Shown: piece by piece, positions 3 to 47,535 of the stretch
Numbering within the stretch: the stretch's first letter is position 1
Layout: every line of letters starts with the position of its first letter
Origin: Mytilus edulis
Taxonomy: Eukaryota
DNA length: 64,000 nucleotides
Assembly (NCBI RefSeq): GCF_963676685.1
Contig: NC_092352.1
Coordinates: 25,234,001 to 25,298,000 of the forward strand
Direction of reading: 5' to 3'
Notes under the pieces: generated by a model
What the model was told of the DNA's origin: nothing
What the model saw: the letters and a program-made list of their open reading frames with translations, nothing else
Database searches by the model: none
Position numbers and translations under genes: made by a program

Positions 3-589
3 TCAGAATATTAACTGGCCATCTAAATCAGTAGGTGCAGTTACTCTCAAATTCTTTATTCTATCTATCTGCTGCTGAGTAACACCTAGGACCATTAATT
101 AAACTGTCTGTAGTGGTATTCCATTTGGTTTGAAATTCATCATACGGAATTATTCTTGCTCTTATGTCATGCATCTATTGGTTGAATTCATTTAGTCTCT
201 TCAAATCTTCAACTTAGTAATCATTGAGAATTCGATTATAAGGAAACATATAACATTTAGATTAAGATTAGATTGTGCATGTTGTTATAACTTGACAAAT
301 ACAACCTGACTTCCTGCAACTATTTGTTTTTTCGTATTTATACAGGAAGCTCCATTGTTTTTGGGTCAGTGTTCCCTTTTTTTGGATATGTACAGTTAGC
401 ATGCAGTGAACAACACGTTGTATTGACACGAAAACAGTGCACAATGCGATGTATATTTGTATCTAAAAATTGGTAGAACGACAATCTATTTTCTCGCAGA
501 TGGTTGTCCAGAATCTTTTCACACGTTGGGTATACTAATTGATTTAATAATCCATTCAGACGCTCGTAATTTTGGTTTTCTGATGTCAT
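3..589 (-). pseudogene. Disrupted paralogue 1 of the Cys/His-rich DZIP3-HEPN-like family
   Basis: Manual translation from the ATG at 589 gives MTSENQNYERL..HRIVHCFR..CCSLHANC. After a frameshift at the T7 run (377-383) it continues GTLTQKQWSFLY..CRKSGCICQV, then LNLNVICFLIIEF, DLKRLNEFNQ*MHD..YDEFQTKWNTTTDSL and MVLGVTQQQIDRIK. This is colinear with ORFs 7422-8027 and 14949-15674 but needs about 4 frameshifts and has an in-frame TAG at 175-177. Confidence 0.85.
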
Positions 590-3258
590 GTTTCTTGCAG
601 GGACAAAAGAATAACCTGAAATGATAGTTATTATTGAATTATTGGTCGTGTCTGTGTCTATCTGTTTTATTCGTGACGTTGCTGTTTGAAATTTTGCGCG
701 AAAAATAGCTATCAAAAATAAGGGATTACCGATTATGTACTTTTGCTTACATTCATAGAACGCGAACATTCTTCGATACGGTACTATGGAATGTTGTATG
801 TTTGTACCTGTGTTTGTTGTTGGTCATACTAGCATGATTGTATGGCTTTTTTCTAAAATGATGATCATTGTTTGTTGTTGTTGTTTTTTATTCCTGTTGT
901 AATTCCACTGCTCGAAATTAAAGGAAGTTGTTTTTGTGTTAAAACTAACAATGACGGTGTAAACCTGGCACGCACATATCTATCTGTTTATGAATCTTGA
1001 TGTGTAGTCTTAAGTTATGTCTTTATGTTTAAGTCATTTAAGACGTCCGTTTTATTAACAAATTTTGATAGCCTGTTAAAATTATTATCAATTTCTCAAT
1101 ATTATCTTTTATTTATATTTTAAAGCCGAAGTTACTATGAAATTATAAAGAAAAACATGAATTTGTTTATATATAATATATATATATATTTAGAATCTTA
1201 CCGATATTTGTTGGTCAATATTCAAAATCCTTACAAATACCACATGACATGAAATTATAAATAGTTGACCTTTTTCAAATGTTTAGATTTTTGTTAGACT
1301 TACAAAGCGATTCACATAAGTGAATCTTTATTGTTTTTATTGTTTTATTAACTATGAATAAAGAATATTTAGTACGTACGTATGTAATTTTATAATGTCA
1401 TAACCGTTCTAATCGATAATTTTTATAGTGTATGTTTTAGTTCAAACATGTGTGTTAACAACACCAAATTTCTAAAAGCAAATCGAAGTAATAGGATAAT
1501 AAGAACTAATTATTAGTTTATGGTTATATACAAAAGCCATTTGAACTTTCAGTCCAGGTAAAGGAATAAGAGTGAGTCATGATGTTTTGACATGGAAGAT
1601 GCTGCTTAATATGCCAGCACTACAGGCTTCAAGTTAAATTCATACACATTTCTTTGCACTTTTCAAAGAAACTTGAAAAACCGTTGACACATATGTACAA
1701 TGTAGGGCATGTAGTATTTTCGGCATAGTCATGACGTTTCTCTACTAAATTTAGACTATGTTATGATCAACCATTCAGTCTTGTCGAATGTAGAACTGTA
1801 GTTTTAAGACGAATTGATCTTCCTCGCATTCCCGATTTATTAAATTGAATTAGATATTAATAAACAATAATTAAACTCACAAAACATAGAATATGTGAGT
1901 TCTTCTTGATAAAATATCTGCTATGTCGAATTAACTGACCTAGTATTGTCTATTTTTTTCCAGCGTTTCATATAACAAATGAAATTAATCGAACTAATTG
2001 AAAAAAAATTAGTATCGTGATTGTCAAAAATGTTTCTTTTTTGCTTAAATTTTTAGAAAATGGTGAAGATATATAAATCAGAATCGTTATAATCAAACTA
2101 CCTTGGATACACGAGATACCAGTAAATATAGAATGGATAAATTGCACAGCCTTATCGTCAGTATGATTGCCAATAGGACAACATCCATCAGAGACAAAAG
2201 GACGATATCGTCAAACAGACATCTATTATGAATAGTTTTTTCAAAGAAGTCTTATTTTTTAAAAGGCAATGATATATTTTTTTTCACTTGTTCTGATATT
2301 TATCTTTTTGATATTTTTTAATATCTGCAAGAATAATTGATACTACCTTGTGTGTTTTTTTATTTCTGTTTCATTATTGTTCACTTTTATTTTCTTTAAT
2401 AATTTACAAAACAAAACAGGCCATATGAGCGTACAAATGAAAGGTGTATGTATTAATAGATACAAGGGCAGTTGTACCAGACAAAAAGGTTTTTTAAGTG
2501 AAAAATTAGGCAGTTACAAATTAAACTTTTTTTTCTTCAATTCTTTGTAAAACGTTGACACTCAAAAGAAACAACAATAATAGTACCTTTTAAATACTAT
2601 AGTGCATTTTTTTAAAAGTACATAACCTTAAGTGGGCTTTCCTTTATTTTCAACAACACATGAGTCGGAAGCTATCCAATTTAAATTGCATCTAGTTATT
2701 ATTCATTATTTTTGAAATAAATGCCAAACGTTTAATTAGGGAAACGGTTATAAAACTTCTAGTTACGGCATCAATGTAAAAATGCCCCTGCTAGCTTCAC
2801 TGCAGATTCCAAATACGCAATACTAAGAATTTGTTCTTAATTATTAATGTACAGTTGTTGTTTCAGGCAATCGCGACAGTAAAGCAAGGGCAGTCTAAAT
2901 CTATAAAATTGCTTTTGAATGCTATATTTCAGTCATAACAGTACTTTCTTGCAGGCGGGATTATCAAAATCGAGACATGAAAGAACAATTAACATTTAAT
3001 TGATATGTGTCATATAACGATGGGAAATATTTAAGCGGACAAAGTAAATGCATAATGACATTTCCGACCTTATTAAGACACTTTCTTCGGAAATAATCTA
3101 TCTTTTGAAGACATCTTCCCACATCAATGTAAATATGTCAAAGGCAGCCTCAGAAAAACATGAACAACACAGAATATGGGCTATGTTCCGTAATATAAGG
3201 AATATCTTTATTTACAAAAATTTATAAACCACAAGTAAAACAAAAACGAACCCTAAAA

Positions 3259-3785
3259 CTTTACGACAAAAGGGATTAGTCCAGCTTCCCCATTATGTAC
3301 CTTTAATTTATATGTTTAAAGATTCCAGCAGAGCCTAAATATAGCTTTGTGTACCCCAGTTGATGCTTGGGTTTCTTATCATGATGTCCTTGATAGAGGA
3401 TTGCTACTAACATGGAAGATATATTGAACGCATGGTTCTAATTTATAAAGGTTGGGTAATATTTTCGAGAGTTGGTTGACCGTTATTGAATATCGGTGTC
3501 ACAGATGACAACGGTTAATTCAGTCGTCGTTACAGTCTCTTTCCCCTATTATAATATCACCGAATGTGACTTATCACTGAATGTGTACTTAAAATTATCA
3601 ACATGACGGGTGAAAATATTACAGCGGGATCCGCTTATCCTTTTAGAGAACCTGTAATTATTTTTTGTATTATTCTAGTGTTCAGGTTTAAATGTATTGT
3701 TTTCGTCATCTTTAGTTTTTACGATGTTGTTGACTCTTCGACTTATGAGTTTTGTTGTCCCCTTGGTATCTTTTGTCGTATTTTT
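3259..3785 (+). mobile_element. Degenerate 3' fragment of the Penelope-like retroelement
   Basis: Colinear with 9447-10057 (ctttacgacaaaag..., catgat.tccttgatagag, gagttggttgaccgtta, 3' end tgtccc.ttggtatcttt); many indels. Confidence 0.8.
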
Positions 3786-4009
3786 TAAGAAAGAAAAATG
3801 ATGAATATACTATAAGTTACCACTGTACAGAAAACAAACTAAAGATGGAGCAAATCGGGTGAGTGAAATAAACGAAGGGTCAGCAGTTCCAACTTCACAA
3901 GTGTTACCCGACGTGTAACTCTTGATGGAATATATTGTCGATTGGCATTAGACAATTATTGCCGATAATTGACATCCTTGTAAGTATCATAATGAATCAC
4001 AAATTGTGT

Positions 4010-4275
4010 AATATCCTCTCAACTAGGAGATATATATTCCGTATGCATGCTTGGCTAGTAGCTTGCTTCAGAGAAATGGAAAGTTCAGGGAATTTAAAAA
4101 AAGTAAAATAACAAAAATAATGAACTCCAAGGGAAATTCAAAACGGAAAGTCCTTATAAATGGCAAAATCAAAAGCTCAAACCGGCACAGCTTACTAAAT
4201 ACTATTAATTTGTAGATGTAAGTAAAAATTTAAAACAGACATAATGATATCTGTGGTATTTTTTATTTCAATTAG
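4010..4275 (-). mobile_element. Degenerate inverted Penelope-like RT fragment interrupted by another repeat (about 4087-4182)
   Basis: Reverse complement matches tgaactttccatttct..gcatacgg.atatatatctcc.agttg and gaaataaa..ataccacagata of the 9177-9755 copy. The insert matches the reverse complement of 12170-12245. Confidence 0.6.
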
Positions 4276-5443
4276 TTCAATGAAATAGTTCAATGGGATG
4301 TCATCATCAATTAATAACAGTTCAATTTTCACAATGTATGATTTGTTTCTTCCTTCAAGATACATAAATAACTGCGATTATTTTTTTCTAACTGTAGATA
4401 AATCTAATATAAAGAACACTAGTTTTCAAAGAAGGACGTAGACTGGGCTATTTATTAGTATTTTATGATACGCTTTGAATGCTGTGTTCTCTACAAATAA
4501 TCCATTACGCAATTAGCACCAATTTTGTTTTGTTAAAAAGCTATTAGCAAAAATAACCTTTACTGCATCTGAAATTAGAAACAATATTCTTAACTGAAAG
4601 TTAAGAGAACGACATTATAAATTACATTTCAATTCAGCTATAATCAATTTATAATTGTTTTTCTAAATTTATTATAAATCAAACATTATAACTATATTCA
4701 GTATAATTTCTATTCTCCTTTGCAGAAAAATCATCTTCAGGTTCAAAGGATATTCATATGAATTTTAAAAATATATATCTGGTATAATTGCTACCGAGAA
4801 AAAATGATAACAATTACATTGCGCAAAAAAATATACACTACAGTAAGCTATAAAAGGCCATGGTTTGAAAAAATGAAACAACTAAAGAAATTAACAAAAA
4901 TACCGAACTCTGAGAAAAAGAAAAACAATGCCATGATTTATGCTTCCACAAAACACCAATTAACATACTTAAAATATCAGCTTCACTCATCGGATCGCTA
5001 CCAAACAAAACAAATTACAAAAAGACATAGAAAAGACGCAAAGTATTGTTTTGCAAAATGCAGTTACTAAAGGCTAATCAAAGTCAAATTCTCCAAATAA
5101 ATCCATGTTAACCTAGACTAAAAATAATAATCAGAACACCTCACAAATATTTGGTAGAAAATTTAAAATTACTTAGTTAATGCTTGTTTCAAAATCTCGA
5201 TACCAGAGCACAAAACAAAAGAGATCAAAAGTCATGTAAAACAACTTTCGATTGTATAGGAAGTTTATGTAACAAGGAAAATAAATGTTGTGTTTTCAAT
5301 GATCTAATTGTCAGCTTTATACCTACTACGGTTGCAAATCTGATAGTCTAATGTGAACTTAACAGATTTTGTACTTTTGGTCAATACTCTCAAACAGTTT
5401 AGCGGTTTGTCTTGTAAGAAGTTTTCATACGTTTATATTCATT

Positions 5444-5830
5444 AATTTTACGGACGCCATCACGAGTTGGTTGACCGTTATGGAATAACCATTTCACAAT
5501 GATATCGGATATGTTCCTTACGTCGTAACTTCAGTCCCCTTCCCTTTCATAAATGTGACCTACCGAATTAGACTATTTACCGGATTAGTTATCTCATAAG
5601 CAACACGACGGGTGCCACATGTGGAGCAGGATCTGATTACCCTTCCGAAGCACCTGAGATCACCCCTAGTTTTTGGTGGGGTTCATGTTGTTTATTCTTT
5701 AGTTTTCTATTTTGTGTTATGTGTGCTGTTGTTTGTCTGTTTGTCCTTTTCATTTTTAGCCATGGCGTTGTCAGTTTCTTGTCGATTTATGAGTTTGACT
5801 GTCCCTCTTGTATCTTTCGTCCCTCTTTTA
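5444..5830 (+). mobile_element. Young 5'-truncated copy (3' ~390 bp) of the Penelope-like retroelement
   Basis: Near-identical to 9670-10057 and ends at the same ...gtatctttcgtccctctttta terminus. Confidence 0.92.
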
Positions 5831-6288
5831 TATACAAATAAAACTAGACACAGACCGTCAAGACCACTTGAATATCACCCCCTTCTTTTTGCAGGTTTTA
5901 ATTTCTCTGACAACTTTTTTTTCATTCTGCACAGCAACAATGTTATCTATTGAATAAAGCAAAATATTGATATTGTTTTCATTGATCTCAGTCTTGTTTA
6001 CTTTATTTATGTATACTAAGGACTAGTCTACATAATAGTATGTCAAACGTGTCCGTCGGATGGGAACGTTTAGTCCAATGTTCTGTGTTCAGGAAGTACA
6101 ACACTCTTTGCAAGTTAAAGATCCTTCTCAACAAGCTCTTTTTGGTAGGTCCATATCAAGTGACTGGTTGTTTAATTTATTGTATACTGTTTTGCTTTCA
6201 TGAACTATTTTTGTCTAAAATCTGTTAGTATTCATACTTGGGTGACTTCTGCCTTTTTCAATTAATGTTGTATAGTGTGTCATTGTGT

Positions 6289-6632
6289 GTTGTATTGTTA
6301 CACTGTCTCGTGTTAGGGTTAAAGTTGTCGACAGACAAAATTTTCAAATCCGCTGCATGTGTTTACACCTGTTCAAAGTCTTGTACCTGATGTTCAGTGG
6401 TTTTTCGTTTGTTAATGCGGTTCATACGTGTTTCTCGTTTCTCGTTTTATATAGATTAGACCGTTGTCCTACTTTACACTAGTCATTTTGGGGCCCTTTA
6501 TACCTTGCTGTTCGGTGTGAGCCAAGGCTCCGTGTTGAAGGCCGTACTTTGGCCTATAATGGTTTACTTTTACAAGTTGTGGCTTGGATGGAGAGTTGTC
6601 TCGTTGGCACTCATACCACATCTTCTTATATC
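6289..6632 (+). repeat. Abundant SINE-like interspersed repeat (terminus tggatggagagttgtctc.ttggcactcataccacatcttctta)
   Basis: The same terminus recurs at 19890-20052 and 38070-38185 (+), and inverted near 2160, 19208, 32348, 37655 and 52447. Confidence 0.75.
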
Positions 6633-7421
6633 TACTCACCATGACAGAGCTAGTGCCAATCCTACTGCTCCTCCTATGGGAATTCCCAGTATTATTAATA
6701 TCTTTAGATAATTTAAGGAATTATAAATTGTCAAAATCAATCCTAAATGGTTCAAAGTTTTAAATTCTGTGCTCAATTAAGTAACTATTTTTGCTTTTTA
6801 GGACACCTCTAGAAATTTCAACTGTTTCTAAAGTAACATTTAAATAGCAAGATATTTCACGGTGTGTGTTTTATATTCATTTTAAGACTTTTTTATATTA
6901 AGGATACCACACATCCCATCATTAAAACTCTACAGAGAGGTCCAATTATACTGTCCTGTTAATGAAAATAAAGATTACTTAGTGAATATCTAATTAGAAA
7001 AATAGAAATTATTCGGGGAAAAAAACAAAAAAAGCAATGACACGTTTTATATTATAAAATGTTCTTTTAATATATACACAATCACAATAATATATCACTC
7101 GACATTTCTTACAATGATAATCGGGCACTGGCTATTTTTAATTATATTTACCAACAGGTACTGAATATAATCTAAGAAAAGCCACAGTAAACAATATGAT
7201 AAAAAATTACTTTTTATTGGAATTATATACGGTTCTTTTTGGAATCACTCGAGATTTAAATTAAAAAAAAAGTAGAAACAAATTGAAAGATTTATCACAT
7301 CCTATGTCTCCGGCCTTTTCCTTATAAAGATACAGACAAGAGAAGCCGGAATGTTTCAGTACTCTATATATCAGCAGGATATTCAAAAACTTCATCATGA
7401 ATAATGAATTTAAGAACGTAA

Positions 7422-8027
7422 TTATCTTAATATATGTTGTATACTTACTTGCTTTACTGGGATAGGTGATGGTATTGTCCGTTTTACTTCATCTATTGCT
7501 GTTGATTCTAAACCAAGAACTAATAAACTATTTGTAACCGTATTCCAATTTCTTAGATACTCGTCTTTTTTTACTCTTGTATTTTCTAATTCGTGGAAAT
7601 ATTCACTGAATTTTTCGAGTTCTTTTAAAGCGGGAAATTTTTTAAATTCTATAATATTGAATTCGCGTATTAAAAACGTTAAGATTTCGACGTCGAATTT
7701 TGGCATTCGACGACTCTTTGTTAACACATGACAAATACAACCATCTTTAATACACTTTTTTGTCCTGACTTCCATAAAGATACGACCCCACGCACGTTCA
7801 CTTAGTGTCTGTGTCTCATTTAAAACACATTTGTATTTGTTCTGGAAGCAGCAATAAGCATCATGGCGGAAACAATGCATTATCCTATGTTTGTTTCTGT
7901 CCAAAAATGTAAACAGCGTCAGGTATTGTGATTGTAAGTAATTATTGAGTAATCTTTTACAAAATGGTAAAACAACTCTCTCTAACAGAAGCCGAAGTCG
8001 CTCGTAGTACTCAGTATCTGTAAGCAT
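7422..8027 (-). CDS. Paralogue 2: ~200-aa Cys/His-rich protein with a DZIP3-type HEPN-like domain, catalytic motif degenerate
   Basis: Intact 201-aa ORF. YYERLRLLL..FDVEILTFLIREF..ALKELEKFSEYFH..VKKDEYLRNWNTVTNSLLVLG follows the HEPN_DZIP3 pattern as I recall it (FDITLL..LLRN / RNxxAH / ISxxEF..W..L..LG). Acceptor ttttatcttcatacag| at 8037/8036, probable donor CAA|gtaagt at 7449/7448, upstream non-coding exon donor CG|gtaagt at 8569/8568. Confidence 0.75.
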   Translation of the reverse strand: MLTDTEYYERLRLLLERVVLPFCKRLLNNYLQSQYLTLFTFLDRNKHRIMHCFRHDAYCCFQNKYKCVLNETQTLSERAWGRIFMEVRTKKCIKDGCICHVLTKSRRMPKFDVEILTFLIREFNIIEFKKFPALKELEKFSEYFHELENTRVKKDEYLRNWNTVTNSLLVLGLESTAIDEVKRTIPSPIPVKQVSIQHILR

Positions 8028-9176
8028 TCTTTGTCACTGTATGAAGATAAAAGAGATTTTAAATTTGTTAGAATTTTTATCTATTAAGATAAAATCTTCG
8101 TTGGTGATCAAGGTAACCAATGTAATTCTCAACATTCAAAAATAGGCAGCACATTCCTGGAAACTTTCAGTACATTATCAGATCGAACTTATCGGCGTTG
8201 AATGCCTTGAAAAAATCGGTTGAAAGTTTAGAAGAGTCAAAATTAATCAGTTAGAGAATATTGAATATAACATTTTATGAAAAGTTTCCCCCATTAGCTA
8301 CTGTACATAGTTAAATAAAACTTATAAATAAATACTTTTTCATATTCGGCCCGCATACTGTAGTAGTATGTTTTACAGTATGTCCTTTCAAATTATATTA
8401 GATGCCCAAGGTGTCGTATTTGTAATTTATAGACCAACTGGATTCATCCTTTTAAACAATTCTTGGGTGTATTTCCTTGACTTTAAACTTTTTCTACACT
8501 GATACAAAAACAAAAAGTGTCTTTAATAAAAAGAAAGAAAAATGATTAACTTTAAAATTGAAACTTACCGTAAAGTGTGTGTGTTATAAATTTAGCGTGA
8601 CCTCGACAATCATGTCACATTTATTTCAATTGGTTTGAAATAAATATCTCTTGTGCTTTGCGAAACAGAACGTTTAACATTCATTGTTGTTAAAAACATT
8701 ACTTAATATTCGTACATATACATTGTAGATTGAATCAGACTTACTAATACAGTAACTATTTTTTAGACGAATTTTATTTCTTTATCAAAAATTGCAATGC
8801 CGGTTATTCCTTATAATGTTTTAATTAATTCTTAACAATCTCTGAAGCCAAATACGTAAAAAAAAGAAAAATCCTTGTGCAGCTATATAATCAAAAGTAA
8901 CCTTACAATATAGTCAAATTCATCCATGGTCAACTTTGACAAAGGCAGTTTGGTGTAATTTTAGCTTCTTCAAAATTTATCAAATAACATTAAGAAATGG
9001 ATTTAGGGAGTGTGTCAAAGAGACAACAACCCGACCAAAGAGCAGAAAAGCAAAATTTAGGCAAAGTTTTTTAATAATAATTTCAGTATCGAATCACTGA
9101 ATACTAAAATGATGATACCCTAGTGGCTTAACAGTCCACCTATAGTGGAATCGACCAATATAAGAAAATGAATATT

Positions 9177-10057
9177 ATACTTGCCGACTTGTTTCTTTAT
9201 TATTATGAGGCTGACTTCATGCAGGAACTTCTTAGGAAGAAAGATAAGAAGTTAGCAATATCCTTTAACTCTACTTTCCGCTATATAGATGACGTTCTTT
9301 CACTAAACAATTCAAAATTTGGTGACTATGTGGAACGCATCTATCCCATCGAATTGGAGATAAAGGATACTACAGATACAGTTAAGTCGGCTTCATATCT
9401 TGACTTACATCTAGAAATTGACAATGAGGGTCGGTTGAAAACAAAACTTTACGACAAAAGAGATGATTTCAGTTTTCCAATTGTGAACTTTCCATTTCTA
9501 AGTAGCAACATTCCAGCAGCACCTGCATACGGGGTATATATCTCCCAGTTGATACGATATTCCCGTGCGTGCATTTCCTATCATGATTTTCTTGATAGAG
9601 GGTTACTGCTCACCAGGAAGCTATTAAACCAAGAGTTCCAAATGGTGAAGTTGAAATCATCCCTTCGTAAATTTTACGGACGCCATCACGAGTTGGTTGA
9701 ACGTTATGGAATAACCGTTTCACAAATGATATCGGATATGTTCCTTACGTCGTAACTACAGTCCCCTCCCATTTCATGAATGTGACCTACCGAATTAGAC
9801 TATTTACCGGATTTGTAATCACATAAGCAACACGACGGGTGCCACATGTGGAGCAGGATCTGCTTACCCTTCCGGAGCACCTGAGATCACCCCTAGTTTT
9901 TGGTGGGGTTCGTGTTGTTTATTCTTTAGTTTTCTATGTTGTGTCATGTGTACTATTGTTTTTCTGTTTGTCTTTTTCATTTTTAGCCATGGCGTTGTCA
10001 GTTTGTTTTAGATTTATGAGTTTGACTGTCCCTTTGGTATCTTTCGTCCCTCTTTTA
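9177..10057 (+). mobile_element. 5'-truncated Penelope-like element (probably Naiad clade): C-terminal half of the reverse transcriptase plus structured 3' UTR
   Basis: ORF 9168-9755 contains LADLFL..YE, FRYIDD, YLDL and LYDKRDDFSF.IVNFP..SSNIP...AYGVYISQLIRY, which are PLE RT and thumb motifs. It stops without a C-terminal GIY-YIG domain. Several other copies occur in the window. Confidence 0.9.
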
Positions 10058-11534
10058 TACAAATTTGGTGAGTTTAATTTGCAATTCTAGCAAAATGAAA
10101 AAGAAACTTAAATACAATTTTTTTCTGTAACTACTTTAAATATTGAAGTTTCTGTGAATATGATATATGAATGTCAATTTTTATTTTCGGAAAACCTTGA
10201 AGACGTATGATTTATAACGCTTTAACTGAGATAACCAATTGCAAAGTTCACAGCTCATATTCAATTGTGTGGCAAACCTCTCTCATGCTGTACTAAATGC
10301 AGCGTTATTTTAAAAGATTGTGTTTTTCGCTCTTTAGTTCTGCATCTCATGACTATGCAGGTAAAGACTCGCACTTGATGGTTGAGTTTGATTTAATCTG
10401 GGTTTTCTTTTTCTGTTTGTCTTTTTTCGGAAAACAACCTTATTAGTCTATGACTTTTTCTCATAAAAAAATATTCTTACTAGGAAAAAGGATACGCGTT
10501 ATTCTAGCGTATTTTGCCATTGATTTTGATTTTTTCTTTGTTTCAGATCGTTGGTCTCTCTCGAATTTCCTTACAAATTATCATATAGGTTCATCATACG
10601 TGCTGATTGGGGGTAAGATGGCATTTTTATTGCTGGGTTATTTCATTGACGTAAAATTAACAAAGAGCTATATCTACTTCATACTTTTGGGTAATTTTAC
10701 TTTTGTGCTTACTTTACTTTTACAGAACTTTGTTACGACGTTATGAGATAATATCATTTTTGGGGATAAAAGCTCTTGACCTTGCGTTTTTGTATGTTGT
10801 ACTAAACCAACTTTAAATAAAATGTTGTATTTTCTCTTTTAATGATCAAGAGAAATCCTGTTATGCAATCTTTTTTTCAAATAATGATTTACAGGTATAT
10901 CGATTACTCCTGAACATGTTCCTTCAACAAGCATTGCACAAGTAGATGCTTAAAGTGGGCCACTTTGTTTATATTGAACAGCCGATCAATTAATTCAAAA
11001 ATGTGATGTTATGATTCTGAAGTTAAATGTAGCCCCTTCAAATTTTAGAACATTAATTAATTTGTTTTCTCACCATCTTCTAAAGGTACGTGTTCTTTTA
11101 TTTGTTGGTACATTTTTGTATTCTGTCTTAAATTTTTGTCTATATGCCTTTTTGTGATTCTTTGTTACATATTTGTTTGTTTTATGGTGAATAAGATTAT
11201 AACAAAATGTTTTATTTAAAATGCGTGATAAATTATAATCCTGTTACTTTTGATAACTATTTACACCACTGGGTCGATAACACTGCTGGTGGACGTTTCG
11301 TCCCCGACGGTATCACCAGCCCAGTAGTTAACACTTCGGTGTTGACATGAATATCAATTATATGGTAATTTTTATAATTTCCCTTTACAAAACTTTTAAT
11401 TTTTCGAAAAACTAAGGATGTTCTTATCCCAGGAACAGATTACCTTAGACGTATTTGGCACAACTTTTTGGAATTTTGGTTCCTCAATGCTCTTCAACTT
11501 TGTACTTGTTTGGCTTTAAACTACTTTGATCTGA

Positions 11535-11578
11535 GCGTCACTGATGAGTCTTATGTAGACGAAACGCGCGTCTGGCGT
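11535..11578 (+). ncRNA. Type I hammerhead ribozyme (intact core)
   Basis: gcgtca-CTGATGA-gtct tatgt agac-GAAAC-gcgc-GTC^tggcgt: stem I gcgtca/tggcgt, stem II gtct/agac, short palindromic stem III. Predicted cleavage 11572/11573. Confidence 0.9.
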
Positions 11579-11886
11579 ATTAGATTATAATCCTGGTACC
11601 TTTGATAACTATTAAACCACTGGGTCGATAACACTGCTGGTGGAAGTTTCGTCTCCGAGGGTATCACCAGCCCAGTAGTCAGCACTTCGGTTTTGACATG
11701 AATATCAATTATATGGTCATTTATATAAATTTCCCGTTTCAAAACTTTGAATTTTTCGAAAAACTAAGGATGTCCTTATTCCAGGAATAGATTTCCTTAG
11801 ACGTATTTGGTACAACCTTTTGGAATTTTGGTTCCTCAATGCTCTTCAACTTTGTACTTGTTTGACTTTTAACTATTTTGATCTGA

Positions 11887-11930
11887 GCGTCACTGATGAG
11901 GGTTATGTAGACGAAACGCGCGTCTGGCGT
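11887..11930 (+). ncRNA. Type I hammerhead ribozyme, second copy with disrupted stem II
   Basis: CTGATGA-gggttatgtagac-GAAAC-gcgc-GTC: gtc>ggg removes two stem II pairs. Cleavage position 11924/11925. Confidence 0.75.
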
Positions 11931-14900
11931 ATTAAATTATAATCCTGGTACCTTTGATAACTAAATATAGCCCTTTTTGGGGACATTTTTACCTATTATT
12001 TCTGGTTGTTGTGTTCAGACATCGTTGTCAATATAATGGAATTTGATGCGACTGTCATACAAGTGAGAGCTTTAGCTAGCTATAAAACCAGGTTTAATCC
12101 ACCGTTTTCTACATTAGAAAAGGCCTGTACCAAGTCAAGAATATGACATTTTTTTTCTATTGGTTTGACCTTTTGGTTTTGCCATTTGTTTAGGGACTTT
12201 TCTTTTTGAATTTTCCTCGGAGTTCAGTATTTATGTGAATGTTATTCTCTTTTCATACTGTTATGATAATTTTTTTTTCGTTTCTATATATGTTGACGTT
12301 TGTTTTTGCTGTAGTTCAGTCTTTCTGGTGATCCGTTGTTTTGTTCTTATAGTTGATGTGGTTCCCTCGTTGTTTGTTTTTTTTTCTTTTTTGTATGTGA
12401 CCCGGATTTGTTAAATCGCCTAATCGATTTATGTATATTGAACCGCGGTATACTACTGTTGCTTTAATTTAATAGTACAATGTATTTATAAAATAAATTC
12501 TGAATTCGACATAAAACTGCATTTTCCACATTGTATTGTTTTAAACTGTATATGCCACTAATAAAAGCAAGAAAGATTTTTTTTATAATACTTCCATCAT
12601 CCAAATGGCAATCAGTCGTGTTCTCATGAAGAAAAGATAAACAAATCCACTGTTTCTTTTTTTTTTCGATGTTGATCATAGTCCTTAAATAGAAAATCAA
12701 AAATAAAATATTAGATACGTTGTTAACCATGAAAAATAAATCAAGAAAGGATGGAAACATAATATTTTTACTTATAAATTTTAGTACACTACGCATAAAA
12801 AAAATAATGAATCTTCATAAAAAGGGGCTAATTACAAATAGTGTACTTATTGGAACTATGTTTTCCTCAATATGATAATGTAGGCAAATATGACAATCTT
12901 GTTTTCTAAACGTTTCAGATTGCCAAATGATATCATTCATATCAATAAGATTTAAGCCTTTTACGATTTTTATTTTAAAACCTCCAAATAATGCAATTCC
13001 AGAAGTGTATCTAACCAAATGACGACCTTAACTGAGGGAAATAACCCTTTTTAGTATAAAATGCAACATTTATAGTGAGCATAATTCTGAAATTAAAGTT
13101 TTGAAGTTTCCAACACAAAACGAAAAAAAATGTTCAACTGCTGTACAAAAATAATACATTAACGTGTATATCAATTAGATTTCATTCCCATATCGTGACA
13201 TTCAACATTGTATGTTTACTTACATGTTAGAGCGACAGCCAGTCCAATACCTAGTGGGACTCCAATAATAACTAATGTCTGTAAGTATTAAAGTTAAGGA
13301 TAATGTGACATCAGTTCTTTTTACATTGTATACATTTTATTCCATAAAACTATATATTTGTTTTGCTGCACTGTAATGCTGATGTTATGGTTTATTAAAA
13401 TAATGATTATTGTCAATCAGACAACTATATTCTTCAAAAGATCAGAAGTCAAAGGATCTTCAACAACTATAAGATTTGAAACAGCCTTCAAAAATTATTA
13501 AAGGCATACTGTATAGTAAGTTATACATACATTGTTATAAACTTTCTCTGAAGATATTATAACTGTTTTTCAATAAATCTAAAAAGAAGAAAATGGTACT
13601 ATCGCCAACTTATCTGAGATGGAGAAACATTCAAATGTCACTGTTTTTTCTTCAACGATAAGGCAAGAACTATAATGCTACAAGCTATGAATGGACCATC
13701 GAATACAAAATTAGACCGTTAAAAAAATATAATAGCCTTATTTGGGTCAATCTAATCAAACAAACAAAAAGTATACCATGGAGATAACAACCACTGAATA
13801 GACTCTTCAATTGAAAGTCAAATAAAATAGCATAAAACTATGAGATGCAAACAGCTCCTCCTACTTTAAGGGTTCTTCAGAGAAAATGGTTAATTGATGT
13901 GTGTCATGACCTAAATTGACACGTGTCTCAATCGGAAATAATATTGATTGTGATTCTTTACATTTGGAAAATCATACAAATTCTATAATTAAGAAAACTG
14001 AAGAGGGTGAAAGAATAGATGAGTAGGATGTCCGGAGACTGTATAAATTCATTTTTTTTTTCAATTTTGGAGAAATCTTTCTTCAACTTGACTTTCAAAA
14101 TCTGTCCATGTAATATATTGATCATTTAGAGTTATTTTAAGCTTTTAGATGTCCTCTGAGTGTGACAATCTAAACAAAGTAATCACTATATTTGATAATT
14201 AAATCGTCTGCTGAAGGTTAAACACTTGACCTTTATAACTATTTATATTTATTTTATGGGTCTTCTGCATATTTAACTTAATTGCTATTGTATGCTTTAA
14301 GAAATAAACCAGGTCTTATGCCTTTTATACGAGTTTCTGTTTCAGCGAATAAGATTTACGGATATTAGTTTTGTCTGAGTAGAATAGAAAGCTTTGATGT
14401 ACAAATGCAAAAGCCATAAAGGATACAGCCAGTATATAGGCTACTATTCTACATTTGAGAAAGCGGTGTCTCCATTTCTAAAATAAAAATAAAATGATGC
14501 CTTTAAACCATGAAAAGCATTAAAAATCGATATAGTATACAAACTTAAATCGGCAAAAGTATGTGCACACCCTAAAACCAACTTTATATTAATTTCGTTA
14601 GATTCTGTAAATAACGTTAGAATAGCTTCTGGTTAAATTAAGTTGCCATTTTAAGGCTGCAGACTATGTTTTCAAAATGGAAATATGAATGATTTTTTTT
14701 TTTAACTCAGCACTGTAGATTCTTCATTTTCAGGTAAAGCCGTTAAGGCCGCTCATTATTGTGTATATGTGACATAACATCAACAGTTTTGTGCACTTAA
14801 TTTTATTCAATTCAATGCATAATATTAAAATTTGAAGAAAGAGTTCTCAATTGTCCATTGTCAGTTGTATTCACACCCAAATGAGTTCTGACACGAAATA

Positions 14901-14948
14901 TTTCCTTTGGTGACTATGTATTGAGTGCATTTGAGTGGTCTGTTTGTT

Positions 14949-15674
14949 TTACGACTGGTAACGACCAGTATTTTCAATAGAATCTGATGCATTTTTATTT
15001 AATGAAGTAATAAGTGCTGAATAGTTTGGATAATAAATCATTAAATATTTATTATTGGCATGTAGTTTTAATCTAAGAAATACCACTTGGCATGTTTCAG
15101 GTTGCTCATATTCCGGTATATCTTCTACTGGCATTGTTCTCACTTCTTCAATCTGTTTTTTAGTAACACCAAGTTTTCGAAGGTATTCTGACGCATTTTT
15201 CCATTTAGTTTCAAATGCTTCGTTGCTTATCTTTTTAGGTCTCATAAATTCACAGAGTCTACATTCTCGATGAAGACCTCGTATACTGGGCATAACGTCT
15301 GAATTACCGGCAACGAAAGTCACCATCAATAAAGAAAGTATGTAAAAGTCTAAATGAGATGCACGAACATGGTTCGTTATAACATTACACACGCACGTCA
15401 CTTTGTTACAATGTGGATTTTTTGTGTCGTCGTACAAGATAAGCCATTGACTTCTCACAAGCGGAAGCTTCTCTGGACTCTTGCAGTTGATGGCGTTTGG
15501 ACAACAAGCACCCGGTAGTCTGTATAAGTGAAGAACCCGATGTTTGTGACGATCAAGTAAAACCGAAAACGATAACATATTTTCTTTTAGATATTCGTCT
15601 AATATTTTCAGCAAGGCTGGCTTTCCACATAACTGAAACAATTTCAGCATCCGTTTGTAGTGGGCATGTTCCAT
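14949..15674 (-). CDS. Paralogue 3: Cys/His-rich DZIP3-HEPN-like protein, catalytic motif absent
   Basis: Intact 241-aa ORF that aligns with paralogue 2 over about 190 aa (HYKRMLKL, LLDRHKHRVLHLYR..CC..C, QW, CNKVTCVC, LDFYILSLL, ISNEAFETKWKNASEYLRKLG). The last ~45 aa may be intron read-through. Acceptor at about 15699; candidate upstream donor TG|gtgagt at about 16595. Confidence 0.75.
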   Translation of the reverse strand: MEHAHYKRMLKLFQLCGKPALLKILDEYLKENMLSFSVLLDRHKHRVLHLYRLPGACCPNAINCKSPEKLPLVRSQWLILYDDTKNPHCNKVTCVCNVITNHVRASHLDFYILSLLMVTFVAGNSDVMPSIRGLHRECRLCEFMRPKKISNEAFETKWKNASEYLRKLGVTKKQIEEVRTMPVEDIPEYEQPETCQVVFLRLKLHANNKYLMIYYPNYSALITSLNKNASDSIENTGRYQS

Positions 15675-17149: not shown

Positions 17150-20100
17150 TCTGGTTTGTTATTCTTTTTTAGAAACATAGTGTTACCCCTATTTATCTAT
17201 ATATACAACTTATTATGAGATTCTATGCGGTTAAGGATACGCATATGGTTTATATGACTTGTATGCATCAAATGCCATTAAGATTTAATGTGTTTTATGA
17301 ATGCAAATGATTGAAAACCACCAACTTACTTGCGGCTTTTGCCGAAAAATACTGTTCCCATGCTTAAATCTAAATTATACACAGTCCCTTCACACGCTTA
17401 ATTTAAGCAATTATTTCAGCTGAACTTAGATACAAACTAGAATCATTCACAATTCACATATTCTTTGTGCATTCACTTGACTAAGGGTTCCTGTGTTTAT
17501 ATTTGTTAATTTGGGAGTTATTATTTATTTTTTTAGGCTCTTTTCCCAAGCACAAACTTTATTTTCATGTTATTGTTAGTATGTCTATGACACATACTTT
17601 AATAGAAGTTAATACACATGAAATTTGTTAACCATGAAATAGATTTCAGTGTACCTTTTAATACAGTTTGTAAAAATACACTCAAAATAAAATGCATCTG
17701 CAAGTTTTTTAATACAAAAATGTCAATATTATGAATATACTGTAAAACTATTAAGGGGTTCTTAATTTTGTCAATAATGAGGATCTGTATAAAATTTACA
17801 AAATAATGGCAGAAAAATAATAAATAAAGAAAAATTTAAAATGTCATGAGAATTGATAAATTAACGTAAAATTTTCTAAAGAAAAATGCCCTAAAAATTT
17901 AAAGGATGCAAAATTTTAGGACCCCCTTTCTAGACCCTTATAAATAATTTTAGAGTTATTGTTCTTTTCCTGAACTTTTCTTGAAATTTTTTTCAGAAAA
18001 TCAGCTAACCATGTTTTTGTTAATTGGTTAGTAGAATTTACAATACCCATATTATTTTAAGTGTTAAGTGAAAAGAGAATGGAAAAGAGGAATGTGTAAG
18101 GCCACCAGTATGTCTTTAATGTAGTGAGAAATTTCTGCACTTGGATGCAATAAATTAACAATAAAGGATTTTTACCTAAAAGATGAACCTACAAACCGCT
18201 GAACCTGCACTTCACTGGTAGGCAATGAAAGCTACAGTCCTCTACGTTAAATGCTAAATAGAGAGATCGTATGAAAAATGAACCCCAATATGTAGCAAAT
18301 ATTCCCCCCATGAACTCTTTGGTTTCCATTCCAGCTTATTTATTATAAAATTCAAAGAGAACCCCTTAAGTTCTAAACTGGGACCAATTCAGGATGTTCC
18401 TTTCAATGGTACATACAAAGAAGACCCAATCTAATCTCTGTGGGAACACAGAAGAATATAATCCCAAATATAAGCTAGCATACAAGGTGGGGACATGTTC
18501 CATTTTCATCTTGCCATATCCCGCCGGCTATAAATTTATACAGATATCATACATCCAGTCTGACGGGAAAAACTTATACAATGGTCATTTATTTACTGGT
18601 GTACATGTACAATGTAGGTAAATTATTTTGGAGGAAAAGTTCCATTTTTAGACATTCTAACAGCTAATTTTTTTATTTCCTTCTTTTCTTGAATTTCTCC
18701 TGACTACACATTTGTACATTGCTCTACTGGAGTGTTTAATTGTATGTCATCAAAAGCTGTCTTTACTATGCATCATTTCATGGAAAAATAACTGCTGGTT
18801 TACAAGCCTATAGGTAGCAATTTTTGGAAGCCTTACTTTTATACCTCTTTGCTGAATAGACTTCTTTGTAAATTGTTTGGTTCTAAAGGTAAAAGATTGG
18901 ACTCTTTTTGAAAATTTATTAGAAAACCAGATGATTAAGGGGAGGTAATTCAAACTTTATATATAAAATAAAAATCTTGCAAATATACTTAAACAAGTAA
19001 ATATAACTTGCATCTTCAAATAAATAGAAATGACTTGCAAAAGTATTACCCCTATATATAGCTAACTGAGATCATTTAAGTAAATAAATACTTAACAAAA
19101 ATTTGAAATATACAACTACATTGTTGTACTGTAGTATTTGTGTTCCAAAACGGGTACAACATTGAGTTCAGGAGTTATGTATACATATATATACATTTGT
19201 ATATTAAATAAGGGGATGTGGTATGATTGTCAATGTAACAAGTTTCCATCAGAGTCCATAAAATGTGGATATACATGTAAGTAACCTTATCTTGAACTCA
19301 CTATACAGCCTTCAACCATGAGCAAAACCAATATCATATAGCTTTTATATAGTTTATAACAATTCGTTTTATGAAAAACAAATACCACAGATCTATAGAA
19401 ATAAATGCAACCTAACTTTGAACACACACAAAGAAGAATGGGGAGGGTTATATAAATGTATGTTTGTAACTGCTCATCCCTTTCCTTAACCTTGGGCAGT
19501 GATGTAACAGCACAACATGTACATTAGAACAAATTTTCAATTAGTTGCAAATGGCTTTACTTAATAGATCATTACAAAGCACAGAAAACAATAGACATGA
19601 AGCACCATTAAAAGAGTACTCCTTGACTGAAAGCTAGTTCAAAGCTTCTTACAACTGATATTAAATGTATCATCTCCTCCCAGACCAAAGTTTCAATTAG
19701 TACACATTCAGCAGTATGAGCAGATTCTGTGTCTAAAGACATCATAAACAGAAACAAATAAACTTGTAAAATGAAATATAAGTAAATAGTACAATAGTAT
19801 ATAGGATCATGAGTACTCATAGCTGTAAAGACATGCTCAATTTTTATATAGATACACGTAATAAGATCTAGACGGTTGGTTGTCTGTTTGAAATGTTTTA
19901 TATATACTAGTTTGGGAACTTTTATAGCTTGCTGTTTGACTTGAGCCAAGTCCCTGTTTTTAAGGCTGTACTTTGACCTATAAAGGTTAGCTTTTTACGT
20001 ATTGTGACTTAGATGGAGAGTTGTCTCATTGGCACTCATACCACATCTTTTATCCTCATTTGTTGTATGTCTAGTTAATCATATTTTGACTTATTAAAAA

Positions 20101-23100
20101 TGAAATCCATGTAATTATAAGTACCCATAAAAATAATAATCATTATGGAAAAAAAGATGAATAAAAATTAAGGTGCTCTGACATGACTGAATGATTTTCT
20201 GTGGTTGTAATGTTATTGTCAGAAATTTGCTTATTCAATTTATTTATTTATATTGACAGAAATTGAACAAGATACAAGTAACAGGACAAAAGAGAAAGCA
20301 GTAAAGACCATTGAGTTGATAAAGTCATTTACTGGTTTGTTTGCTTTATATTAATGATTTATTTATTACAAGTTCTGTAAGATTGTTCAAATTGATAAAA
20401 AAAAAATATTATCAGTAAATTCTGCCTGTTGATATGCATTCATCCAATATTTATAGTTGCATGTTCATATTAAATATAAATTTTGTAAATTATCTCCCTT
20501 GTTAGGCATTTATGGTGGAGCAGTTGAAGTAGTGTAATAATGTTATATATTTTAAAAACTTGCATATTACTGCATCCAAAATATAAATGGATGCATATGC
20601 ATTTTTGTATGAAATAAAAGTTGTATATAGTGTTGCTAGAGTAAAACTGATTCAAAGACAATGAAAGACAATTGGTTAGATGTTTTAAATGTTGTTTATG
20701 ACTTTAAAGGAAATGCTTTGGTTTAAACATATTATTTTTTTGTCATCTTTATCAAACTAAAATACATTAATGTAAAGCTACAATGTAAGATTGTAAGATA
20801 TATATTCAGTTTCAAGTCTTTTTCTAGGTGAACTGCCTAAAGATTTCAGACTGATTGCTGATATACAAGAATTGATAGAAAACACCATTCATCAGAGATC
20901 ACTAAGCACAAGGGGTGATGAATGTCATCTAACCACCATAGCAACAGATGATGGATCACTGTTTGAGAAATTATCTGGTATTTGAATTTTATTTAATTTA
21001 TTCTTTGATTCTCACCAAAACAATGTTCTTCTTGATTTATCTTCAAAAGTTTTGATAAAATTATTAAACGTAATTGTTATACACACCTACTGATTTACAT
21101 TGTATTTCTAACAAAAACTTAATGTCATGCACTGAAAGAAATGGTCAACTTTAATATTTGTGATGTGAATAAAAGAGGATGTAAAAATTTACTTCCACAT
21201 TTGTATCTTTTTTACGACAAGGGGGATTCTATAATAGTCTTGTTGAACTGAGATTTCAAATGAGTCAAAAGTTAATATGCATTGAACGAATTGGGATTCA
21301 CTATGACTTATCAATACTTCAACTTAAACAAAATTTGTTTCCACTACAAGGTTCAGCTACAATTCAGGAAGTCTTTTCACACAATTTTTGCCAGTTTTTG
21401 AGAACTTCCCAAAAATACCAATCAACAATTATACATAGAAATTTCAACTGGATTATAAATTACAAATGAATCCATTTCTAAGAAACACAGGTACACAGAA
21501 TAGCTTCTTCTGATGACTATTAAGTGAAAGTAAATCATCATAAGCTTTAACATGTTTAATAAATTCTGAAAATAATTGTTTTATATTTCTAATATATTTT
21601 TGAAAACAATGTAACAACAATATAGAGCATAATATTGAAATTATCTCCCCTAGAATGACTTGGAAGGATATAGGTTTCTTTTCAATATTGATTTTAATTT
21701 TTTCTTTATTTGCAGATTGGTCAACATTACCATCCGTAGAAAAAAATAACCACAAAAACTTTCTAGAGGAGAATTATTCACCTGAAGACTTGCAGTTGGC
21801 TTATGATGAATACTTTGCAAGACATGGTAACATTTTCATATTATTTTCATTTCAATCTTTGGTTATCTCTGAAATGACAGTTGTGTCATACACTCTTTGT
21901 TATTTAAAAAAAATCTTTATTTGGTTTCCATTCTTTATATGTAAGTTTAACTTACTAATTTGCTTCTCAGACATAGTTTTCATGAAGAAAAAAAATTCTA
22001 TATTTGGTTCAGTTGCTTTTATTGACATTCAGTCGGACAATTTATTTAATGATGTGCAGGTATCAATCAAGTCTAAAATTTAATGCAGGAGGTATAATAA
22101 AAACCATTATCTGGCCTTAAAATGCAAAAAAATAGTCAAATTTTGGAAATTGGTTAGAAATATATTCTAATAACTATGATCTCAAAATAAGGCTATGTAG
22201 ACAGTTTTAGAGTTTAGCATCAAAAGCAAGATAAGAAGTGTTAACCTTTGATGCAAATAGGTTTAAGGCGGTTAGACATGATTTAAAAAATTTAAATACT
22301 GATATCTGATAAAATTAAGAGTCTTTGGAAAATCTGAAGGCTACAACTGATAAATACAATAGCAAATCCAAGGTGAAAACCTGGCCTTATATCATACCTT
22401 CTACTTGATTTCATCATGTGACAATCAACTATTGTTAAAGTAATTGTATGATATTTTTAGTGAAAAGCATGCTGGACCCATTTGGATATTTTACATAATT
22501 CATTTTAATTGAGTTTCAGCAATACAATGAAACTTACGCACATGTGTACTTCATATATGTTTTCAAGTTAAATCATTTTTTTCGTACTCGATTTTTGTGA
22601 ACCTGGTTAGTTAAAATATTTGTGGATAATGGGTAAGCTCACAACAATTTCAATAAAAAAGAGCTTTTTATATAGGACACTGAGAACTAAGTTATTTTAT
22701 TTCATACTGAGATTTGTATGTATTTCAAATTGAATATTTGAATGGTATTATGATAGGTTATAGTTGATTTCATGCATCATTTGTGTCTATATGTTTAACT
22801 AATTAGATCTAATCTTTATTTTAGGAAGAATACCTGCTTTACGAGACTTCAGAGTTTTCATTCTACAGTGGCAAGGTAGGCCAAGGAAGAATTGTCTAGG
22901 TACTTTTTGTCTATTGAGTTATCTCCCATGTTTTATCAACTAAAAGCCTTATTTTCCAAAATATGGCACAGATATGAAAACAATCTTTCAAAGTTTGTAA
23001 CATGGCATGGTAACAATTTAGTAATGTTCAGAAAATAAAGGTTTCACCATTTATAGCAAACAAAAGCATGATCTTAACTATAGAAAATAAACATAAAACT

Positions 23101-47456: not shown

Positions 47457-47535
47457 TGTCATAACCTTTGTAGAAATACGTTGTTCAATCAATATCTACC
47501 GGCTTTGTTGGTGTTCTCGTGTTCTCTGTTTAGTG

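What the first reader, a model, noticed from the sequence alone, without database searches (positions are those of the whole stretch)
3..15674. Tandem array of short HEPN-like proteins with a conserved Cys/His module and no RxxxxH active site
Seen: three co-oriented paralogous exons about 7.5 kb apart (starts at 589, 8027 and 15674). They are strongly diverged but keep HRxxHx[FY]R-x4-CC-x5-6-C, a Trp, C-x4-C-[IV]-C, a [FL][DN]..I...L helix and E[FY]..[KN]W......L..LG. Where the catalytic R-x4-H would lie they read FSEYFH, FNQ*MH and ECRLCE. Established: HEPN domains are RNases or nucleotide sensors that use R-x4-6-H; DZIP3-type HEPN domains are expanded in invertebrates and are often fused to NLR, ankyrin or TRIM-like modules. 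Inference: this is a fast-evolving family of catalytically dead, possibly Zn-binding, nearly stand-alone HEPN proteins, perhaps decoys or dominant-negative partners of active HEPN effectors, since HEPN works as a dimer. It is the best protein-level candidate for an undescribed system here.
Basis: partly seen in the sequence, partly recalled or inferred. Interest (0 to 1): 0.75.

Follow-up and report, generated by a model that had tools for sequence, protein, structure and literature searches.

The report
Membrane-anchored dead HEPN RNases in mussels
A cluster of six mussel genes encodes relatives of RNA-cutting HEPN enzymes that have lost the cutting motif and gained a predicted C-terminal membrane anchor, so they likely act as membrane-tethered RNA binders or regulators rather than as enzymes.

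Summary
The three exons and motifs are real. The array has six copies: three more lie left of the window. They are DZIP3-like HEPN domains (profile match 94%, E 1e-7), and the catalytic R-x4-6-H is gone in 5 of 5 intact copies. First, the proteins are not soluble stand-alones: small spliced exons add a hydrophobic C-terminal anchor. Five of six copies have both anchor exons, and contigs from three probable RNA runs end at the predicted donors. Second, the Cys/His module is not special to the array. 76 other insert-bearing HEPN exons sampled from the same genome share it, and 70 keep an [RK]-[NDHY]-x3-4-H motif. The array is one old clade (SH-aLRT 99). Orthologs are 96-98% identical across Mytilus species, and 16 of 20 listed variants are synonymous, so it is conserved, not fast-evolving. 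Copy 1 is broken in this assembly but looks intact and spliced in another sample. Best reading: tail-anchored HEPN pseudo-RNases that likely bind RNA at a membrane. The decoy idea is possible but untested. A new variant of a known kind; moderate interest.

The parts
15084..15674 (-). Copy 3, coding exon 1: DZIP3-like HEPN domain with Cys/His insert, no catalytic motif; H135-x2-C138-x2-C141 at the former active site
   Evidence: contigs of runs X1 and X5 end at 15084; in-frame TAA just before the ATG
14427..14477 (-). Copy 3, exon 2 (51 nt): basic, Cys-bearing juxtamembrane stretch and first part of the hydrophobic segment
   Evidence: AG / GTATCC ends; present in gene models P0026, P0054, P0056
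13224..13278 (-). Copy 3, exon 3 (55 nt): second part of the predicted transmembrane helix with GxxxG
   Evidence: gene models P0026, P0054, P0056
7449..8027 (-). Copy 2, coding exon 1: HEPN domain with Cys/His insert, no catalytic motif
   Evidence: contigs of X1, X5 and X18 all end at 7448 with further letters
6908..6955 (-). Copy 2, exon 2 (48 nt): juxtamembrane Cys and start of the hydrophobic segment
   Evidence: model P0005; its first G explains the one-base overhang at 7448
6640..6701 (-). Copy 2, exon 3 (62 nt): predicted transmembrane helix with GxxxG motifs
   Evidence: the X18 contig has 109+1 letters beyond exon 1, equal to 48+62
15..589 (-). Copy 1, exon 1: broken in this assembly (four frameshifts, internal stop, lost donor); its exons 2 and 3 lie left of the window at G000:C9:25231449 and 25229368
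   Evidence: X5 contigs differ by 6 and 11 gap letters and end at 15 with 54 more letters
5804..6533 (-). Stretch covered by contigs downstream of copy 2 exon 3: likely 3' UTR or retained intron; not resolved
   Evidence: contigs in X1, X5 and X18 at depth 6-12

Best explanation
These genes encode DZIP3-like HEPN domains that lack the catalytic motif and are spliced to a predicted C-terminal membrane anchor, so they likely act as non-cutting, RNA-binding proteins tethered to the cytosolic face of a membrane. Steps: (1) shown: HEPN homology, loss of R, N and H, the exon structure, one clade, conservation. (2) Predicted: a 25-29 residue hydrophobic tail with no or a very short C-terminal stretch and no N-terminal signal peptide (by inspection) gives tail-anchored topology. 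Juxtamembrane cysteines would be palmitoylation sites and GxxxG would favour pairing in the membrane (established knowledge, recalled). (3) Inferred: H45, H49, C57, C58, C64, C89, C94 and C96 (copy 3 numbering) bind structural zinc, as they are kept whether or not the catalytic motif is present. (4) Inferred: the basic HEPN surface binds RNA without cutting it, holding it at the membrane or presenting it to the many motif-bearing HEPN proteins of the same genome. The clade arose once from an insert-bearing, motif-bearing HEPN, then duplicated in tandem; copy 1 is now polymorphic for loss.
For: HEPN homology: hhalign against insert-less HEPN_DZIP3 exons of the same genome, probability 94.3%, E 1e-7, 160 columns, with the two Cys stretches as insertions. 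PF18738 is hit by 15 of 17 aligned members at E<=1, best 6.9e-11. Atlas neighbours of copy 3 are DUF4559, HEPN_DZIP3 and HEPN_Swt1 clusters (best 0.90). Motif loss: 0 of 5 intact array exons against 70 of 76 other insert-bearing exons. Anchor: exon 2 with a GTATCCTT donor in 6 of 6 copies (10 such words on this strand in 154 kb, 0 on the other); exon 3 in 5 of 6. Best 19-residue hydropathy is 2.5-3.6 for the four joined models with exon 3, against 0.8-1.7 for exon 1 alone. Public gene models from three Mytilus species make the same joins. Contigs of three probable RNA runs stop at the donors, and their extra letters match exon lengths in two cases: 110 = 48+62 for copy 2 and 54 for copy 1. Charge: net +8 to +11 in 4 of 5 array domains (+3 in the fifth) against a median +0.5, quartiles -1 and 3, in 76 relatives. 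Constraint: 16 of 20 listed variants synonymous, u1/u2 dN/dS 0.39, orthologs 96-98% identical. One clade, SH-aLRT 99.
Against: No call shows RNA binding, zinc binding or membrane insertion. The basic surface could bind anionic lipids or proteins instead, and the charge comparison used 188-residue cuts that include different C-terminal helices. Both window copies score under Pfam's cut-off (23.3 and 18.9 bits against 27). The three contig runs are only guessed to be RNA, and no listed joint or piece showed the exon 1 to exon 2 junction directly. The one confirmed RNA-seq run, 19% read, had almost no reads on the exons (depth 0-0.24). Copy u2 has no exon 3 that I could find. The 20 variants are the best-supported rows; 621 more were not shown. 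P0056 is identical to copy 3 over 197 of 197 residues and may share its source, so it is not independent. The tree is a quick search without bootstrap on 57 of 98 rows.
Confidence: 0.45

Rival explanations
1. Decoy or dominant-negative regulators: the dead domains pair with active HEPN RNases, break their composite active site, and sequester them at a membrane, like a built-in antitoxin.
For: HEPN catalysis needs a dimer with juxtaposed motifs (10.64898/2026.05.28.728550, passages). The genome holds at least 150 PF18738 matches (651 candidates) and 112 matches to one insert-bearing relative. Motif-bearing DUF4559 exons with a hydrophobic segment after the HEPN exist in the same genome.
Against: Array members are only 16-25% identical to their nearest motif-bearing relatives, which makes a matched dimer interface less likely. 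Five stable genes could not cover hundreds of diverse targets unless the interface is generic (inference).
Confidence: 0.25
2. Active enzymes with a moved or rebuilt site: K44-H45-x3-H49 fits [RK]-[DNH]-x3-H, and the copy 3 lineage has a conserved H-R-E-C-x2-C-E at the old site.
For: K44, H45 and H49 are invariant in 10 of 10 array sequences. H-x-E-C-x2-C-E is present in 33 of 33 copy-3-like records picked by a neighbouring pattern; these run down to 64% identity but many are near-copies. PMC3710099 notes HEPN families with alternative active-site residues (passages).
Against: H45 and H49 are also present in 76 of 76 relatives, 70 of which keep the canonical motif, and the residue before H45 is K in only 33 of 76. 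The two His go together with the CC pair and are absent from insert-less members, which fits metal ligands. The copy 3 motif is absent from the other four copies. The His of FSEYFH is N or Q in close homologues.
Confidence: 0.12
3. The HEPN fold has been reused as a protein-interaction or metal/redox module on a small membrane protein, with no link to RNA.
For: Long stem branch (1.01 changes per column) and loss of all catalytic residues. Stable orthologs under purifying selection fit a fixed cellular job better than an arms race. A lineage-specific CxxC sits at the old active site of copy 3.
Against: The array domains are more basic than their relatives. The loss polymorphism of copy 1 and the missing anchor exon of u2 resemble birth-and-death of immune genes (the comparison is recalled).
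Confidence: 0.15
4. Decaying duplicates without function.
For: Copy 1 is broken in this assembly and u2 lacks exon 3; almost no reads in one RNA-seq run.
Against: Open frames at 25-35% paralog identity with saturated synonymous sites, 16 of 20 variants synonymous, and 96-98% ortholog identity; spliced-looking contigs in three runs.
Confidence: 0.03

Closest known systems
DZIP3/hRUL138-like HEPN (Pfam PF18738), expanded in bivalves (PMC9646362, PMC3710099)
   Same: Same domain by profile alignment over its full length; tandem arrays in a bivalve genome.
   Different: 194 of 202 pearl-oyster members keep R-x4-6-H (PMC9646362 passages); these have none. They carry a two-part Cys/His insert and a C-terminal hydrophobic anchor instead of NACHT, death, ankyrin or propeller fusions.
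CXorf38 / DUF4559 (PF15112) HEPN with an inserted Zn ribbon
   Same: A metal-type insert within an animal HEPN (PMC3710099 Table 1 passage); best Atlas neighbour, 0.90; mussel members also show a hydrophobic segment after the HEPN.
   Different: No PF15112 match for any of 17 members, and the array is not among the 14 PF15112 matches in the genome. The insert pattern differs (C-x3-5-C...C-x2-C against H-x3-H...CC...C-x-C), and most of the 8 fetched DUF4559 exons keep R-N-x3-4-H.
Inactive HEPN domains: Swt1 C-terminal HEPN, Caenorhabditis paREP1/8 expansions, MtlR
   Same: Motif loss with a proposed non-catalytic RNA-binding or receptor role (PMC3710099 section 9 and passages).
   Different: Those are fused to PIN or ATPase domains or are soluble; none is described in the text I read as tail-anchored or as carrying this insert.
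Membrane-bound HEPN proteins: Ire1 KEN and C6orf70/ERMARD
   Same: A HEPN domain held at a membrane by one transmembrane helix (PMC3710099 section 9).
   Different: Those are active or predicted active, large, and conserved across eukaryotes; these are about 230 aa, motif-less, and their named records are all from Mytilus.

Membership tests
DZIP3/hRUL138-like HEPN (PF18738) | Profile similarity across the HEPN core | tested here: met
   hhalign 94.3%, E 1e-7, 160 columns; 15 of 17 members hit PF18738 at E<=1
DZIP3/hRUL138-like HEPN (PF18738) | Score over Pfam's gathering cut-off (27 bits) | tested here: not met
   copy 2 23.3 bits, copy 3 18.9 bits; they are divergent relatives, linked through insert-bearing members that Pfam does label
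HEPN superfamily | HEPN helical fold | tested here: inconclusive
   Confident models (pLDDT 85 and 87). No structural match at Z>=8. HEPN chains make up 7, probably 8, of the 11 rows with 90 or more aligned residues (Z 5.7-6.7, rmsd 3.0-5.3). Csm6 Z 7.0, rmsd 4.0, 110 aligned; AbiF Z 5.6, rmsd 5.4, 146 aligned. Some HEPN labels are recalled.
Active HEPN RNase | R-[DNH]-x3-5-H catalytic motif in the core helix | tested here: not met
   0 of 5 intact array exons; R, N and H align to C138, R139 and F143 in copy 3
Active HEPN RNase | Dimer with juxtaposed motifs; RNA cleavage | not testable with these tools
   needs biochemistry
CXorf38 / DUF4559 (PF15112) | PF15112 profile match and its Zn-ribbon pattern | tested here: not met
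   no hit in 17 members; not among 14 genomic matches; different Cys pattern
Tail-anchored membrane proteins | One hydrophobic segment at the extreme C-terminus, short or no tail, no N-terminal signal peptide | tested here: met
   19-residue hydropathy 2.5-3.6 at the C-terminus of four joined models, N-termini polar by inspection; public models end 0-14 residues after the segment for P0026, P0054, P0056, P0080, P0081, while P0055 has a 38-residue tail. Sequence criterion only; no topology predictor was run.
Tail-anchored membrane proteins | Post-translational insertion with the N-terminus in the cytosol | not testable with these tools
   needs cell or microsome assays
Zinc-binding insert | Ligand geometry and bound metal | not testable with these tools
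   model coordinates are not returned; H45, H49 and C57 are conserved in 81 of 81 insert-bearing exons

The most novel reading that the evidence does not exclude
A lineage of membrane-tethered HEPN pseudo-enzymes acts as the animal counterpart of antitoxins. They restrain or localise the hundreds of HEPN RNases of mussel immunity, and the copy 3 lineage has rebuilt its dead active site into a His/Cys metal or redox clasp across the dimer.
Probability: 0.2. Interest if true: 0.75.

Novelty: new variant of a known kind. Interest (0 to 1): 0.48.

Why it matters
Bivalves carry hundreds of predicted HEPN RNases, and I found nothing in print on how they are kept in check or localised. A small, conserved, motif-less, membrane-anchored clade next to a large motif-bearing subfamily with the same insert gives a direct test of pseudo-enzyme control in an invertebrate immune family. 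The work also outlines a large His/Cys-insert HEPN subfamily that my searches did not find described. If the proteins only bind RNA, this is one more inactive-HEPN variant.

Tried and rejected
Homodimer prediction of the copy 3 domain with four zinc ions: no verdict, score 0.00, alignment not used; no evidence either way. Foldseek against the PDB: no match at E<=0.001. VIA searches: no Z>=8 in either model. Sequence search of solved structures: best E 0.044, a coronavirus nsp3 chain, treated as noise. No listed holder in the run search is on record as RNA; laying the contigs was what gave evidence. 'N-terminus of a large multidomain protein': rejected by upstream in-frame stops in copies 2 and 3 and by short gene models. 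'FSEYFH holds a catalytic His': rejected; it is out of register and is N or Q in homologues. 'Copy 1 is an assembly error or a fixed pseudogene': not settled; four separate indels, a stop and a lost donor argue against one sequencing error, and other samples look intact. A search for exon 3 of u2 found none. The exons after exon 3 were not resolved: a conserved stretch near 12470-12800 may be a last exon, and public models disagree on the last residues. Earlier findings of this scan: nothing in three look-ups. Paper searches for HEPN with 'pseudonuclease' or 'tail-anchored' gave 0 papers. The second Atlas query did not complete. An alignment of the DUF4559 exons failed on a wrong frame and was not repeated, so that comparison rests on Pfam scans and inspection. 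Supplements: the one file of PMC3710099 held as text (4,325 characters) had none of my terms; the PMC9646362 supplement could not be read. Either paper's alignments might already include insert-bearing or motif-less members.
Full report
Observation. A search of the window's genome with copy 2 found three more close paralogs left of the window on the same contig and strand: u1, u2 and u3 at G000:C9:25205399, 25193667 and 25186579. A search with u1 found no other close members among 50 matches from 150 scored candidates. A cytochrome P450 gene lies between copy 1 and u1. All named homologues of the array members are from Mytilus edulis, M. galloprovincialis and M. trossulus.

Domain identity. 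Copies 2 and 3 hit PF18738 HEPN_DZIP3 below the cut-off (E 6.2e-5 and 1.3e-3), and 15 of 17 aligned family members hit it at E<=1. A profile of ten array sequences aligns to seven insert-less PF18738 exons of the same genome with probability 94.3%, E 1e-7, over 160 columns. The two Cys-rich stretches appear as insertions, and the catalytic R, N and H fall on C138, R139 and F143 of copy 3. Both models are confident and mostly helical (pLDDT 85 and 87). Structure searches are inconclusive on their own: no Foldseek match and no Z>=8, though HEPN chains dominate the longest alignments. The Atlas gave DUF4559, HEPN_DZIP3 and HEPN_Swt1 clusters (best 0.90).

The Cys/His module is inherited, not specific. 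One insert-bearing relative finds 112 matches in the genome (150 of 242 candidates scored). I took the loci returned and 40 more picked by hand, which gave 91 distinct ORFs; 10 were dropped (7 insert-less, 3 partial). Of the 76 non-array exons, 70 keep [RK]-[NDHY]-x3-4-H (36 with R, 34 with K); 0 of 5 array exons do. H45, H49 and C57 are present in all 81, C58 in 78 and C96 in 75. Near-identical paralogs count separately, and activity of the K form is an inference. Database relatives carry the domain before coiled coils, propeller-like regions or an AIG1-type GTPase (the propeller label is by inspection). In a quick IQ-TREE search on 57 of 98 rows (thinned at 50% identity, no bootstrap), the eight array rows form one side of a branch with SH-aLRT 99 and length 1.01.

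Gene structure. Exon 1 ends at a GT donor in five copies. Every copy has a 45-54 nt second exon with an AG acceptor and a GTATCCTT donor; that word occurs 10 times on this strand in 154 kb and never on the other. Five copies have a third exon of 55-62 nt; none was found for u2. Joined, exons 2 and 3 give a basic or Cys-rich stretch and then 25-29 hydrophobic residues, with best 19-residue hydropathy 2.5-3.6 against 0.8-1.7 for exon 1. Four copies have GxxxG there. Public models from three Mytilus species make the same joins and are 232-246 aa for copy 3 and u3 (P0026, P0054, P0056, P0080, P0081); P0055 and P0057 are longer, differing models. In-frame stops lie just before the ATG of copies 2 and 3.

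RNA evidence. Contigs of three probable RNA runs from three studies end at 7448 for copy 2, and in two runs at 15084 for copy 3, each with further letters. The overhang at 7448 is the G that starts exon 2, and X18's 109+1 letters equal exons 2 plus 3. X1 has no coverage in intron 1 of copy 2 beyond what its exon contig explains. Limits: the runs are guessed to be RNA, no junction was listed directly, and the one confirmed RNA-seq run (19% read) had almost no reads on these exons.

Copy 1. In this assembly it has four frameshifts, a stop at 177-175 and TT for the GT donor. Two X5 contigs differ from it by 6 and 11 gap letters, with span differences of +4 and +3, exactly the sums of those indels. 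One ends at position 15 with 54 further letters, the length of copy 1's exon 2. X1 and X5 both read another base in the stop codon. I infer an intact, spliced allele elsewhere, so the loss is likely polymorphic.

Selection. Paralogs are 25-36% identical with synonymous sites at or near saturation, except u1/u2 (73%, dN/dS 0.39). Orthologs are 96-98% identical across Mytilus species. Of the 20 variants listed in the copy 2 and 3 exons, 16 are synonymous; 621 rows were not shown. The array is old and constrained rather than fast-evolving. Four of five array domains are strongly basic (+8 to +11) against a median +0.5 in 76 relatives. Copy-3-like records keep H-x-E-C-x2-C-E at the old active site in 33 of 33 cases picked by a neighbouring pattern, across clusters down to 64% identity.

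Mechanism. Shown: HEPN homology, motif loss, exon chain, monophyly and constraint. Predicted: tail-anchored topology and structural zinc. Inferred: RNA binding without cleavage at a membrane (0.45). Rivals: decoy for active HEPNs (0.25), reuse as a non-RNA module (0.15), moved active site (0.12), decay (0.03).

Literature. PMC3710099 (passages and section 9) lists DZIP3-like HEPN expansions, a Zn ribbon inserted in CXorf38, inactive HEPNs as proposed RNA receptors, and membrane-bound ERMARD and Ire1. PMC9646362 (passages) reports 194 of 202 pearl-oyster DZIP3-like HEPNs with the motif. 10.64898/2026.05.28.728550 (passages) states the motif and the dimer requirement. PMC8195603 (passages) shows HEPN fusions in bivalve immune expansions. 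PMC7773633 had only a reference hit. Other papers were seen as search listings only. Eight searches found no description of this insert subfamily or of tail-anchored motif-less HEPNs. The library lacks most subscription papers, and two supplements were largely or wholly unreadable.

Verdict. A real, well-defined new variant of a known kind. Each ingredient has precedent in the HEPN superfamily; I did not find the combination described. Interest 0.48.

Noticed in passing
G000 contigs C3-C14, e.g. L007, L012, L019, L107-L146: A large subfamily of HEPN exons with an H-x3-H...CC...C-x-C insert (112 matches to one member), some with the insert region doubled; 34 of 76 sampled have Lys in place of the catalytic Arg (K-N-x3-4-H).
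   Followed up: partly
L039-L046 (G000 C2, C5, C6, C9): CXorf38/DUF4559-like HEPN exons, most with an intact R-N-x3-4-H and a hydrophobic segment after the domain: candidate membrane-bound active HEPN RNases.
   Followed up: partly
L018 (G000:C3:10229012-10232434): A 717-aa open frame with an insert-bearing HEPN (R-N-x3-H intact) between N- and C-terminal hydrophobic segments; no Pfam hit at E<=0.001.
   Followed up: no
window 15252-15272 (copy 3 residues 135-141): Conserved H-x2-C-x2-C at the former active site in the copy 3 lineage only; possible metal or redox site.
   Followed up: partly
G000:C9:25216727-25225875 (L027, L028): A cytochrome P450 gene interrupts the array between copy 1 and u1, on the same strand.
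   Followed up: partly
window 9132-9755: Fragment of a high-copy retroelement reverse transcriptase (YIDD motif; family not tested) between copies 2 and 3, with very high contig depth.
   Followed up: no
window 11230-11960: A repeated unit of about 340 bases, seen twice and partly a third time, in a high-copy element (by eye).
   Followed up: no
window 23744-24601 (+): 285-aa open frame with a coiled-coil-like, internally repeated sequence and no Pfam hit.
   Followed up: no
window 35164-37044 (+): Single-exon array of C2H2 zinc fingers, 626 aa.
   Followed up: partly
window 47109-47495 (-): Gly/Arg-rich exon resembling the N-terminus of ALYREF/THOC4 (resemblance recalled; no Pfam hit).
   Followed up: no
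window 21604-22083 (+): Open frame with a signal-peptide-like hydrophobic start; no Pfam hit.
   Followed up: no
window 18210-18525: Contigs of X5 and X18 cover this stretch with identical ends and 23 differences: an exon of another gene or a repeat.
   Followed up: no
L021:1246-4650 (G000:C9:25155246-25158650): Two long adjacent open frames (343 and 791 aa) broken by one stop, the second with NHL repeats; possibly a transposon-borne gene.
   Followed up: no
L007 and L008 (G000:C14:37084752 and 37116424): Two insert-bearing HEPN exons 31.7 kb apart with identical translations: a very recent duplication or an assembly duplicate.
   Followed up: no
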